Source of the DNA: a virus
Taxonomy: Duplodnaviria; Heunggongvirae; Uroviricota; Caudoviricetes
Length of the DNA: 39,499 bases
Strand: one strand, 5' to 3'
IMG/VR virus record: IMGVR_UViG_2563366900_000004
Positions 6,001-9,000 of the stretch are shown here, one piece after another (the first letter of the stretch is position 1; each line of letters begins with the position of its first letter). A program made the position numbers.

Positions 6001-9000
6001 TTCAACCGTCATTTTCAATGTTCGCGCTTGACGATACTCAACAAGTCCACTCGCTGATTTACCGCTTTTAATGTGCGCTTCTTGCATACTTTCAAGTTGG
6101 TCTACCAGTGAGCGGCGAACGGCTTTTGACTCGCGAGCGGCAACTCGCAATGCTTGCTTGATTGACATCTCAATGATAACCATCGAAGTTTTGTTCGCTT
6201 TTTGCACTACACTTTTTGTGTAGTGCTCTCCATCCAATTCATCTTCAATTTTCTCGATGAATTTGTTATTACGAACCTCCGGCTCACCGCACTGTCTACG
6301 AGCCTGATTTACCATCTCAAGCAGGCGCTGGCTGTCAATGGTTTTATCCGTGACAACGGATCCGATGTTTGCTACATTCTTAAAAGTCATTAGGCATTCC
6401 TTATGTGGTAGTAAGGGTGTGACATAGGCCGCCAGCAGCACACTGGCGGTTTTCTTTTTGCGCCGTCCGGCGCACCAATCAATGAATCCATTCCTCGCCG
6501 CGCAGTTTTGCCAGCATTGGCTGAGCGTTCTTTACGACAAAATTGTTGGTATCAAGATTCTTCATTTCACGAAGAAGTGATTTCTTGGTTTCTTCTGACA
6601 TATAGCGAGTCTCATATGCGATATCGTAAATCCTTCCTGAAAGCTCAGAACAAATTTGCTTCATTCCTGGGTAGATGTGTTTGCACATTTGTTGACTCTT
6701 CTCCATCCACAATTGTAAGTAGCAGAGATTAACCAGTTCTTCGTCAGTAAACTGTTTTGCAATCGGTGAGCATTCTGCCTGCCGATCCAAAATATCCAGC
6801 ACCCAGCGGCGGAACTCTTTGGCTACCGGAGTGCGAGCAAACATCGCGATTAGGTGGGCACCGCGTAGTGAGAAAACTCGCACTTTTTTGCGATAATTTC
6901 CTGAGGTACTCACTTCGAGTACCTGAGTCATTCCGGCGCTAAACTCATCGCTATACTTGTTATAAATCATTGTTACTGCACGACTATTTGCGTATTTAAG
7001 TGCAGATGCAATATTAGATGATGTAAACCAAACACCATGCATATCACGGGTGGGCACCAACTCAACTCCGTGGAAGTTGTAATCTGATTTTGCTACAATA
7101 TTCATGTTAGTTTCCTTGCATACGGTTACTGACATAGAGGCCCGGTTTGTGTTCGCGCACTGCCGGGCTTCACTATTTTTATGTCCTAGCATTCTTCTCT
7201 CCAATCAGTCCGTACACTTTTCTCAATTGATAAATAAGTTCCGTGTTGAACTGTCGACACTCTTTTTCTCCATTTCTTTCAATCGCCTTCCTTACATCCT
7301 CTGGGAAACGAACCTTGCGTTGATACATGTCTTTTGCTTTTTCCATCTCCACTCCTTAAATAGCCCCACTGTGGGGCAATTGAAATTGTCACACCGTGCG
7401 TCATTGAAGTCAACCCCACCGTGGGGCATAATTTACTTATTGTGAATTTTTCCTGTTTGGACTAATGGTATGAGTAGAGAAGACCCTCAACTTCGGATTA
7501 GGCTTCCTGTTGAATTAAAAAAAATAATTGAAGCGTCATCAAAACAAAATAATCGTTCTATGAATGCTGAGATTGTCACTCTGCTTGAGTTGGCGATTCG
7601 TGTTTGTCGTGATTTTGGGCCGGAGGATGGTCCTATCGTTCAGCAGTTTAAAGAACAACTAGATGCGATAAACAGAAAATATGATAAAATCGAGCATGAA
7701 AAACTTATACCTCAACTTTTAGAAATCATAGAAAAACAGAAAAAACAAGTAGATAAACTTATTAGCATGGTTGAAAGATCAATTCCTCTTTCAGAGGAAT
7801 ATAAGCAGAAATATCTTGGTGATGACAACAAAAAACCCACCTGACGGTGGGTTAATTTTTGCCTTTTTTGGACCATATTGACTACTCATAAAATGAGATC
7901 AATATTTAATCGCCCAATAACGGGTGTATGTTGAGGTATATCATGGCGAAAAAACCAGGTGAAAACACAGGAAAAAACGGCGGAATATACCAAGAAGTTG
8001 GCCCACGCGGCGGTAAGAAAGACAATTTTGCCACCGTCAAGGACAACGAAAGGCTTCCGCCAACAACAAAGCCAGGTCATGGCTGGGTATTGGATAAGCG
8101 AACTCCAGACAGCAAAAAGTAATAATCAAGCCGGGTCACTCCGGCTTTTTGATATGTCGCTCGCAGAACTCAACAAGCCTGCTCATTAAGTAGCAGTAAG
8201 TCTCATTGGCTCTTCCTGGTTCAACATCAACACCGACCCTTGAGCAGATATCGAATGCCATGTGAGCGCACTCATGGGCAATAGTAGATAGTTTGCCATT
8301 GAACACGCCTATCACATGCAAAACACCATTCTCGCTGCTCATTGTATGAGACGCTCCGTTGGCATCCGAGTCCTGCACGTCCACACCAAGTTTTTGATGC
8401 AGGCGTTGCCATTCTGGAAAGTCTCTACAAAACACAATTGTACCGCTCTCAAAGAGCGGAACGAGCATCTTTGGTACGTTTCCAATGTTAACTTTTTTCA
8501 TGGTATCCTGCTCAAAACTAAGGAGGTTGGTGTGAAGCGATGGTTCCTCATAATTACTGTTTTCGCGATCATTTACGCTATTTTCCCTGCATTAAAAGCA
8601 CCAATGCAAATAATTTCACTAGCAATAATTGCAATTGGTGCTTTCATTACAGTATCCGTACTTGTGTTTAAGGTTTTAAAGTTTTTAGTTTGGCTATCAA
8701 AAGATGATGGATGCAAAGTTCATCAAGAAAAAGAAGGCAAAATAACCAAAGTTGACTAACTGTCACTAGCGAGCCATGTAATAATCCCCGTGCGGGCAAT
8801 GGTTTTTGCTTCATCTGTTGATAGGGTTTTCTCCCATCTCTTAAATGCCCCAGATTGCATCAGTTTCCTTTCTATTGCGCGTCTCACTTCTGCTCTGTCT
8901 ACTGGTGCGTTTTGCAGGCGAAATAGCATTGATTTAAACTCAGGAGAAGACAGTAGAGCATCAGCAGCCTTTATCCTGCTTGTTTTCCCTGACATCAATG

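What the first reader, a model, noticed from the sequence alone, without database searches (positions are those of the whole stretch)
6351..6459. Candidate sar-like antisense RNA over the antirepressor-like gene start
A strong plus-strand intrinsic terminator (8-bp GC-rich stem plus T-run) sits inside a minus-strand operon, about 40 nt beyond the ATG of the gene at 5662..6390. A plus-strand promoter-like element (TGACAA-16-TACATT) lies just inside that gene's 5' end. The predicted transcript of about 70 nt would be fully complementary to the gene's RBS and start codon, as for the P22 sar RNA that represses ant.
Basis: inference. Interest (0 to 1): 0.55.

Follow-up and report, generated by a model that had tools for sequence, protein, structure and literature searches.

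The report
Second sar-like antisense RNA cassette
A P22-like prophage very probably makes a ~75-nt antisense RNA that covers the ribosome-binding site and start codon of its second antirepressor-type gene; the design is that of P22 sar, but the sequence family is unannotated and is found on several kinds of phage regulator genes in Enterobacterales.

Summary
On the + strand, a promoter (GTGACA, 17 bp, TGcTACATT; 6350-6378) sits inside codons 5-14 of the minus-strand gene 5662-6390. A strong + strand-only terminator (6426-6459) lies 35 nt beyond that gene's ATG. Together they predict a 75-nt RNA (6385-6459) complementary to the gene's Shine-Dalgarno sequence and AUG.

Comparative data support function:
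- The promoter bases are fixed at synonymous codon positions.
- 41 of 44 promoter-selected relatives carry a hairpin plus T-run at the same distance.
- The stem shows compensatory changes in 7 of 10 pairs.
- G·U pairs fit only the + strand.

It is not a member of Rfam sar (RF00262): there is no model hit and no significant similarity to P22 Psar-sar beyond the -10 core. The true sar ortholog lies one gene upstream (about 7106-7180), between arc and the real Ant homolog. So the phage has two tandem antisense brakes. The target is a relative of a Rha-domain protein, not P22 Ant.

The same promoter-leader-terminator cassette is fused to Rha, ORF6N, KilA-N-like and phrog_1726 proteins in many Enterobacterales prophages, and it breaks at mosaic junctions.

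No transcript evidence was available. I rate it a new member of a known kind, of moderate interest.

The parts
6350..6355 (+). -35 hexamer GTGACA of the antisense promoter, lying in codons 12-14 of the minus-strand gene.
   Evidence: One search gives the match with a 17-bp spacer. One search, on 38 non-redundant leaders not selected for the -35: codon 13 is GTC in 38/38, codon 12 position 3 is T in 37/38, 14.1 is A in 35, and 14.2 is C in 33. Other third positions have information content of only 0.07-0.6 bits.
6370..6378 (+). Extended -10 element, TGcTACATT.
   Evidence: flags the TG before the second hexamer. TGnTAnnnT occurs at a fixed offset in 92 of 103 unique hairpin-selected cassettes. 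The TA falls in NTA codons (GTA/TTA/ATA/CTA) and the TG in NCA codons, so the amino acid varies while the bases stay fixed.
6385..6459 (+). Predicted 75-nt antisense RNA (AGUCAUUAGGCAUUCCUUAUGUGG...GGCGGUUUUCUUUUU).
   Evidence: The start is inferred as the 7th nt after the -10; this position is A in 98 of 110 cassettes. In P22 the Rfam sar hit likewise starts 7 nt after TATACT. Fold. Predicted lengths across the family are 60-78 nt, median 70.
6386..6423 (+). 5' stem-loop domain containing the anti-SD UUCCUU (6397-6402). It is closed by GUC (6386-6388) pairing with GAC (6421-6423).
   Evidence: The same two-domain layout, with the anti-SD in the upper stem or loop, recurs in most of the single-sequence folds of the 76 distinct predicted RNAs. 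No consensus for this domain was recovered by RNAalifold.
6426..6459 (+). Intrinsic terminator that works on the + strand only: stem 6426-6435 with 6443-6452, then a T-run to 6459.
   Evidence: Covariation: 95.4% of cells paired, 7 of 10 pairs with compensatory change, 53 compensatory cells against 17.2 in shuffles, 0 of 500 shuffles as high. Independent RNAalifold prediction: 7 of 9 pairs.
6388..6402 (-). Target translation-initiation region: SD AAGGA (6402-6398) and AUG (6390-6388).
   Evidence: Read from the sequence. The gene start agrees with the RefSeq annotation of an identical prophage gene.
5662..6390 (-). Target gene, 242 aa, an antirepressor-type regulator.
   Evidence: PHROG 1726 'anti-repressor', E = 7e-101. 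No Pfam, NCBIfam or PDB match. Residues 50-242 are 44% identical (E = 1e-55) to a protein with a Phage_pRha match just under Pfam's cut-off.
6479..7105 (-). Upstream gene of the same operon: the real Ant homolog.
   Evidence: Bro-N and P22_AR_C domains. PHROG 245 'anti-repressor Ant'.
7071..7182 (+). Ortholog of P22 Psar plus sar: -10 TTGCTACAAT (7090-7099), predicted RNA about 7106-7180, two stem-loops.
   Evidence: Alignment with P22. Global alignment z = 10.4 against P22 and z = 19 against SPN3UB sar. Fold of -33.3 kcal/mol, z = -5.6. No RF00262 hit.
7179..7352 (-). Arc-like ribbon-helix-helix repressor gene, first gene of the operon.
   Evidence: Pfam Arc, E = 0.0012, below the curated cut-off. 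PHROG 228 'Arc-like repressor'.
7385..7413 (-). Pant-like promoter, TTGACT-17-GACAAT, for the arc-ant-X operon.
   Evidence: consensus match only. It is flanked by the palindromes CCCCACTGTGGGG (7364-7376) and CCCCACCGTGGGG (7414-7426).

Best explanation
The element is a self-contained cis-antisense RNA gene of the P22 sar type.

How it most likely works:
1. A sigma-70 promoter is embedded in codons 5-14 of the minus-strand gene 5662-6390. It fires outward across that gene's start codon.
2. Transcription starts near A6385 and stops at the + strand-only terminator at 6426-6459, giving an RNA of about 75 nt.
3. This RNA is perfectly complementary to positions -69 to +6 of the target mRNA, including the Shine-Dalgarno sequence and the AUG.
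4. Pairing blocks 30S subunit binding, and the duplex may be cleaved. The protein is therefore not made even when the mRNA is present.

Why the phage needs it: the gene lies, with arc and ant, between the ejection-protein genes and the tailspike gene on one strand. Late-operon transcription has to pass through it to reach the tailspike gene. That transcription cannot be shut off by the Arc or Mnt repressors acting at Pant. Each antirepressor-type gene in this path therefore carries its own post-transcriptional brake: the true sar for ant, and this RNA for the next gene. The terminator has no T-run on the minus strand, so it should not act there as an intrinsic terminator and sense transcription should pass.

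Shown here: the sequence elements, their conservation, the covariation and the geometry. Inferred: that the RNA is made, that it represses translation, and its role in the late operon.
For: - Promoter and terminator are at the stated coordinates.
- Promoter constraint is at the nucleotide level, not the protein level. Codon 13 is GTC in 38/38 and codon 12 position 3 is T in 37/38, whatever the amino acid. The -10 TA sits in NTA codons, including the rare ATA and CTA. The predicted +1 is A in 98/110.
- Starting from the hairpin, 92 of 103 unique instances carry TGnTAnnnT at a fixed offset. Four more carry a different good promoter (TTGACT-16-GATAAT) in the same place.
- Starting from the promoter, 41 of 44 unique instances have a hairpin plus T-run beginning 25-41 nt past the start codon. 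Only 6 of these are the same hairpin sequence.
- Terminator stem covariation: 7 of 10 pairs are compensatory and 0 of 500 shuffles reach the observed score. RNAalifold finds the same stem independently.
- 18 G·U/U·G cells against a single C·A mismatch, which points to the + strand RNA as the selected one.
- The experimentally characterised P22 Psar has the same -10 core, TTGCTAnnnT, the same position in the target's first codons, and a start 7 nt after the -10. P22 sar has the same two-stem-loop shape.
- There is no conserved + strand ORF.
- In P22-like phages arc and ant are also transcribed from Plate (PMC12111858), and sar represses ant by pairing with its mRNA (PMC12197685).
Against: - No transcript, 5' end or repression data exist for this element or any member of its family in the sources I could search.
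- No Rfam family matches it.
- As a bare consensus match the promoter is no better than chance.
- The -10 hexamer is only 4/6.
- Part of the comparative set is closely related and shares ancestry, so counts of instances are not independent events.
- No consensus structure for the 5' domain could be recovered.
- The late-operon rationale is transferred from P22, not tested.
Confidence: 0.75

Rival explanations
1. The promoter-terminator unit works mainly through the act of convergent transcription. It would interfere with RNA polymerase coming from Pant or Plate, or act as an insulator that keeps + strand transcription out of ant. The RNA product would have no pairing function.
For: The promoter faces the operon promoter, as Psar faces Pant in P22. 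The terminator sits exactly at the boundary with the ant module.
Against: The transcribed segment always spans the SD and start codon at a fixed distance. The RNA keeps a 5' stem-loop that presents the anti-SD. Interference alone would not need a short, structured, terminated product. The P22 homologue of the design acts by pairing (PMC12197685).
Confidence: 0.1
2. The hairpin acts on the minus-strand mRNA as an attenuator, an RNase III site or a stabiliser between ant and the next gene. The promoter-like bases only reflect a conserved N-terminal peptide.
For: The hairpin is also present in the sense mRNA. The leader peptide M-T-x-x-N-V-A-N-x-x-S-V-V-T looks conserved.
Against: No T-run follows the stem on the minus strand and no minus-strand terminator is called there. 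G·U pairs (18 cells) would be A·C mismatches on the minus strand, against a single C·A. Amino acids vary at the promoter codons while the promoter bases, including third positions, are fixed. The T-run on the + strand is kept in 41 of 44 promoter-selected instances.
Confidence: 0.04
3. The conserved palindrome is primarily a DNA-level element: a linker sequence where homologous recombination joins phage modules, or a protein-binding inverted repeat. Terminator activity would be incidental.
For: Homology with other phages starts or stops exactly at the hairpin (window 6425) or at the end of the T-run (6457-6461) in dozens of loci. The CCGCCAG/CTGGCGG stem is invariant in 75 of 80 protein-selected loci while loops and flanks vary.
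Against: When cassettes are collected by promoter instead, the stem sequence changes with compensatory substitutions and pairing is kept. That is a structural constraint, not a sequence-specific one. G·U pairs are tolerated on one strand only. A role as a recombination joint is compatible with, and probably a consequence of, being a conserved terminator.
Confidence: 0.06
4. The terminator ends a small + strand protein-coding gene, for example the ORF 6202-6393 (63 aa).
For: That ORF ends 33 nt before the stem.
Against: The ORF lies wholly antisense inside the target gene and starts with TTG. Across 122 unique cassettes the longest same-strand ORF ending there ranges from 3 to 243 aa (median 44), with no consistent frame or length.
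Confidence: 0.02

Closest known systems
P22 sar RNA (Rfam RF00262), the antisense repressor of ant in the immI region
   Same: The promoter lies inside the first codons of an immI antirepressor-type gene on the opposite strand. Both share the extended -10 core TTGCTAnnnT, with the start 7 nt downstream, next to the start codon. Both RNAs are about 70 nt with two stem-loops, end at an intrinsic terminator in the upstream intergenic region, and are complementary to the SD. Both lie in the late-operon path upstream of the tailspike gene.
   Different: There is no RF00262 hit and no significant overall similarity to P22 Psar-sar (z = 0.6). The terminator is different. The predicted RNA covers the AUG as well. 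The target is the second antirepressor-type gene (a relative of a Rha-domain protein), not ant. It coexists in tandem with the true sar ortholog at about 7106-7180.
SymR/symE-type cis-antisense RNAs of E. coli
   Same: From my own knowledge: a short RNA of about 77 nt is transcribed from a promoter just inside the target ORF and overlaps its SD and AUG. Tested here: the neighbouring sar ortholog gives a weak SymR match, E = 0.03 in a 181-nt search.
   Different: No sequence relationship for the finding itself. SymE is a toxin-like SOS protein, not a phage regulator.
c4 RNA of phages P1 and P7, repressor of ant
   Same: It is also an RNA that blocks translation of an antirepressor by pairing around the ribosome-binding site (PMC12197685).
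   Different: From my own knowledge, c4 is processed from the same-strand leader and acts through short complementary loops. Here the RNA is made from the opposite strand with its own promoter and terminator and is fully complementary.
Lambda OOP RNA
   Same: It is a short (77 nt) terminated antisense RNA from a lambdoid phage with its own promoter (PMC12197685).
   Different: From my own knowledge, OOP overlaps the 3' end of cII, not a ribosome-binding site.

Membership tests
sar RNA (Rfam RF00262) | Covariance-model score at or above the gathering score of 43 bits. | tested here: not met
   No hit in the window at gathering level or at E up to 10 in 5200-8200. Positive controls: P22 scores 97.8 bits and SPN3UB 48 bits. 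In 12 loci carrying the cassette the model hits only arc-ant junctions, never the cassette.
sar RNA (Rfam RF00262) | Sequence similarity to P22 Psar-sar. | tested here: not met
   Global alignment z = 0.6, with 82 of 300 shuffles as good. Only the -10 core TTGCTAnnnT and GTG at the -35 are shared. There is weak similarity to the window's own sar ortholog (z = 3.9).
sar RNA (Rfam RF00262) | Lies in the arc-ant intergenic region, antisense to the ant ribosome-binding site. | tested here: not met
   It lies between the Ant homolog (6479-7105) and the next gene. The arc-ant position is occupied by a different element at 7106-7180.
sar RNA (Rfam RF00262) | Promoter within the target gene's first codons, intrinsic terminator upstream of the target, and an RNA of about 68-69 nt complementary to the SD. 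| tested here: met
   The predicted RNA is 75 nt and complementary to the SD and AUG.
sar RNA (Rfam RF00262) | Represses translation of the target. | not testable with these tools
   Needs fusions, Northern blots or RNA-seq.
cis-encoded antisense sRNA overlapping a translation-initiation region | Own promoter under selection. | tested here: met
   The -35 and extended -10 are fixed at synonymous positions and the +1 is A in 98/110.
cis-encoded antisense sRNA overlapping a translation-initiation region | Own intrinsic terminator, supported as an RNA structure. | tested here: met
   7 of 10 pairs are compensatory and 0 of 500 shuffles reach the observed score. RNAalifold supports 7 of 9 pairs. 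The T-run is kept in 41 of 44 promoter-selected instances.
cis-encoded antisense sRNA overlapping a translation-initiation region | A detectable transcript of the predicted size and strand. | not testable with these tools
   No expression data could be accessed. No paper was found.
P22 Ant antirepressor family (for the target gene) | Bro-N plus P22_AR_C domains. | tested here: not met
   The target has no Pfam hit at E up to 0.01. These domains are in the upstream gene 6479-7105. The target is PHROG 1726, and residues 50-242 match a protein with a sub-threshold Phage_pRha hit.

The most novel reading that the evidence does not exclude
The element may be one copy of a portable 'antisense brake' cassette. 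The cassette consists of a sigma-70 promoter written into a roughly 14-codon leader peptide, the ribosome-binding site, and a one-way terminator. It moves as a unit between unrelated phage regulator genes (Rha, ORF6N, KilA-N-like, PHROG 1726) across Enterobacterales prophages, and its terminator doubles as the recombination joint. In P22-like phages, stacking one cassette per antirepressor-type gene would let late transcription reach the tailspike gene without any antirepressor being made.
Probability: 0.5. Interest if true: 0.65.

Novelty: new member of a known kind. Interest (0 to 1): 0.5.

Why it matters
- It would add a second, unannotated and widespread family of sar-type antisense RNAs. 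This suggests that antisense control of antirepressor-type genes is a general, modular solution in temperate enterobacterial phages, not a peculiarity of P22.
- It offers a reason why such genes can sit inside a late operon upstream of the tailspike gene.
- It gives a clean case of a promoter encoded within a portable leader peptide, and of a terminator that marks mosaic junctions.
- In practice, genome annotation pipelines miss it: RefSeq annotates no RNA here and calls the target a 'hypothetical protein'.
- Prophage-induction studies in E. coli, Salmonella and Klebsiella could be confounded by this hidden layer of control.

Tried and rejected
- Rfam on the whole window at gathering level and on 5200-8200 at E up to 10: nothing relevant; the weak SgrS, RyhB and leader hits are just terminators.
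- Rfam on 12 cassette-bearing loci: only true sar hits.
- Homology of the finding to P22 sar: not significant.
- Pfam, NCBIfam and PDB sequence searches for the target protein: no usable hit.
- blastn of a Rha-type cassette against isolated phage genomes: no match.
- Literature searches for sar-like RNAs and for the hairpin sequence itself: no description of this element. Schaefer & McClure 1997 was not held in the library.
- A consensus structure for the 5' domain could not be recovered, because MAFFT does not align the subtypes. Support for it comes only from single-sequence folds.
- A mini-ORF (MSHPYYHIRNA, 6425-6390) whose stop overlaps the target's AUG as UAAUG: I read the leaders of three other subtypes by eye and saw no upstream AUG, so I dropped it.
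- A + strand protein gene as the owner of the terminator: rejected.
- Two genome contigs matches (an Anaerolineae MAG and a Clostridia MAG) are chance matches with no ORF.
- I did not build a covariance model or predict the target protein's structure. Neither would change the verdict.
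Full report
**Context.** The window is a P22-like (Lederbergvirus-type) prophage. On the minus strand it has, in order:
- an ejection-protein gene (8756-10879);
- an Arc-like gene (7179-7352);
- an Ant homolog with Bro-N and P22_AR_C domains (6479-7105);
- a 242-aa gene (5662-6390);
- a bidirectional terminator (5622-5643);
- the tailspike gene (2300-5245).

Mnt/Arc-like ribbon-helix-helix genes lie on the + strand at 7470-7844 and 5378-5635. Phage JEP4 and E. coli prophages have the same arc-ant-X arrangement. RefSeq annotates the same gene boundaries and no RNA gene. This is the variable 'ant moron' that lies in the late operon just upstream of the tailspike gene in P22-like phages (PMC2629481).

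**Observation.**
- The + strand hairpin AGGCCGCCAG/CTGGCGGTTT (6426-6452) with its T-run to 6459 is the best terminator-like site in the 4-kb neighbourhood. It has no counterpart on the minus strand.
- The promoter is GTGACA, 17 bp, TACATT, with an extended -10 TG (6350-6378). As a bare consensus match it is not above chance: 6 sites found against 7.9 expected.
- A start 7 nt after the -10 (A6385) gives a 75-nt RNA complementary to the SD AAGGA (6402-6398) and the AUG (6390-6388).
- The RNA folds into a 5' stem-loop holding the anti-SD, followed by the terminator. P22 sar has the same two-stem-loop shape.

**The comparison sets.** I collected relatives in three ways.
- By the hairpin sequence.
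- By the target protein.
- By the promoter pattern plus start codon, with no requirement for a hairpin.

Hairpin-selected set: 103 unique instances have an opposite-strand ORF starting 15-100 nt before the hairpin. Of these, 92 carry TGnTAnnnT inside the gene's first codons at a fixed offset. Four more carry a different good promoter, TTGACT-16-GATAAT, at the same place. The rest look unrelated.

Promoter-selected set: 41 of 44 unique instances first found this way have a hairpin plus T-run starting 25-41 nt beyond the start codon. A 42nd has one mismatch. Only 6 of the 41 have the CCGCCAG stem. Promoter and terminator therefore predict each other, at a constant geometry. Predicted RNA lengths are 60-78 nt, median 70.

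**Promoter constraint is at the nucleotide level.**
- In 38 non-redundant leaders that were not selected for the -35, codon 13 is GTC in all 38, although valine has four codons.
- The third position of codon 12 is T in 37, whatever the amino acid.
- Other third positions nearby are almost free, at 0.07-0.6 bits.
- The -10 TA falls in NTA codons (GTA, TTA, ATA, CTA, including rare ones) and the TG in NCA codons. The amino acid changes while the promoter base does not.
- The predicted +1 is A in 98 of 110 instances.

**The terminator is supported as an RNA structure on the + strand.**
- On 35 distinct hairpins, 95.4% of cells pair and 7 of 10 pairs show compensatory changes.
- There are 53 compensatory cells against 17.2 in shuffles, and no shuffle or slid register comes close.
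- RNAalifold predicts the same stem on an independent alignment of whole RNAs.
- Stems include 18 G·U or U·G cells against a single C·A mismatch. This fits the + strand transcript and not the sense mRNA.
- No + strand ORF is conserved in front of the terminator.

**Relation to sar.**
- Rfam's sar model scores 97.8 bits on P22 and 48 bits at the arc-ant junction of SPN3UB. It finds nothing at the finding.
- Global alignment of the finding with P22 Psar-sar is not significant (z = 0.6).
- What is shared is the design and the -10 core: P22 TTGCTATACT against the finding's TTGCTACATT. In each case the motif lies in the target's first codons and the start is 7 nt downstream.
- The window's true sar ortholog is one gene upstream. 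The segment 7071-7182 aligns with P22 (z = 10.4) and with SPN3UB sar (z = 19). It has the -10 TTGCTACAAT and folds into two stem-loops with z = -5.6. It too escapes RF00262.
- The phage therefore has two tandem antisense cassettes, one per antirepressor-type gene. SPN3UB and locus L017 show the same tandem pattern.

**The target.**
- The 242-aa protein is PHROG 1726 'anti-repressor', with no Pfam, NCBIfam or PDB relative.
- Residues 50-242 are 44% identical to a protein that has a Phage_pRha match just under Pfam's cut-off (29.3 against 29.9 bits) and sits in the same position behind Ant in another phage.
- Across the family, the same leader (M-T-x-x-N-V-A-N-x-x-S-V-V-T) and cassette are fused to several protein bodies: Rha-type, ORF6N (SPN3UB gp22), KilA-N-like (by eye) and PHROG 1726.
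- Homology between phages begins or ends exactly at the hairpin or at the end of the T-run. The cassette thus behaves as a movable unit and the terminator as a mosaic joint.
- In one-genome-per-species data, 27 real copies occur. 25 are in genera of Enterobacterales such as Yersinia, Pantoea, Citrobacter, Serratia, Erwinia and Rahnella. The other two are in records labelled Chryseobacterium, probably mislabelled.

**Mechanism, by analogy.** In P22, sar represses ant by pairing with its mRNA (PMC12197685). Arc and ant are also transcribed from the late promoter (PMC12111858). Repressors acting at Pant cannot stop late read-through towards the tailspike gene. A post-transcriptional brake on every antirepressor-type gene in that path makes sense, and so does a terminator that has its T-run on the antisense strand only. 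These steps are inferred; none was tested.

**Rivals.** I considered four alternatives: transcriptional interference only, a sense-strand RNA element, a DNA-level recombination or binding site, and a + strand protein gene. Each is weakened by the strand-specific signals, the covariation or the fixed overlap with the ribosome-binding site. A role as a recombination joint is probably real, but secondary.

**Verdict.** The element is a new, unannotated member of the known class of sar-type antisense regulators, not a member of the sar sequence family. I found no prior description in Rfam 15 or in the searchable literature. Expression remains to be shown.

Noticed in passing
window 7071-7182 (+): This is the true ortholog of P22 Psar plus sar, in the arc-ant intergenic region. 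It has the -10 TTGCTACAAT, a predicted RNA at about 7106-7180 and two stem-loops (z = -5.6). It aligns with P22 (z = 10.4) but is missed by Rfam RF00262; its only weak hit is SymR.
   Followed up: yes
window 6425-6461; loci L003, L042, L044, L052, L112, L117 and others: Homology between phages starts exactly at the hairpin (query position 176 = window 6425) or stops at the end of the T-run (6457-6461). The terminator marks the junction between the ant module and the downstream-gene module.
   Followed up: partly
window 6460-6473: A second small hairpin, GCGCCgtccGGCGC, lies directly after the T-run and 5 nt after the ant stop codon. It has no T-run on either strand. In the listings it appeared with the Ant C-terminal module rather than with the cassette. 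Its function is unexplained.
   Followed up: no
window 6390-6425 (-): A mini-ORF, MSHPYYHIRNA, starts just 3' of the hairpin on the mRNA. Its UAA stop overlaps the target gene's AUG (UAAUG), which looks like translational coupling. Reading the leaders of three other cassette subtypes by eye, I saw no upstream AUG.
   Followed up: partly
window 5378-5635 (+) and 5622-5643: A second Arc/Mnt-type ribbon-helix-helix gene (Pfam Arc, E = 3e-15) converges on the target gene and shares a bidirectional terminator with it. The region therefore holds three RHH regulators in all.
   Followed up: partly
window 7364-7376 and 7414-7426: Two near-identical 13-bp palindromes, CCCCACTGTGGGG and CCCCACCGTGGGG, lie between the divergent arc-like and mnt-like genes. 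They are likely Arc/Mnt operators flanking the Pant-like promoter.
   Followed up: no
L190-L193 (upstream of gene start at 1501): These relatives of the target protein match only from residue 5. They have a different leader (..VVNNIANHSS..), with TTGCAATATT in place of the -10 and a different hairpin (TCTCCGCgagtGCGAGGA + TTGTTATT). This may be a diverged or decayed cassette.
   Followed up: no
L279 and L304 (records titled Chryseobacterium sp. 18061): Two genuine cassettes with enterobacterial-type leaders sit in 8-kb stretches of 46-49% G+C taken from contigs labelled Chryseobacterium. The record is probably mislabelled or contaminated.
   Followed up: no
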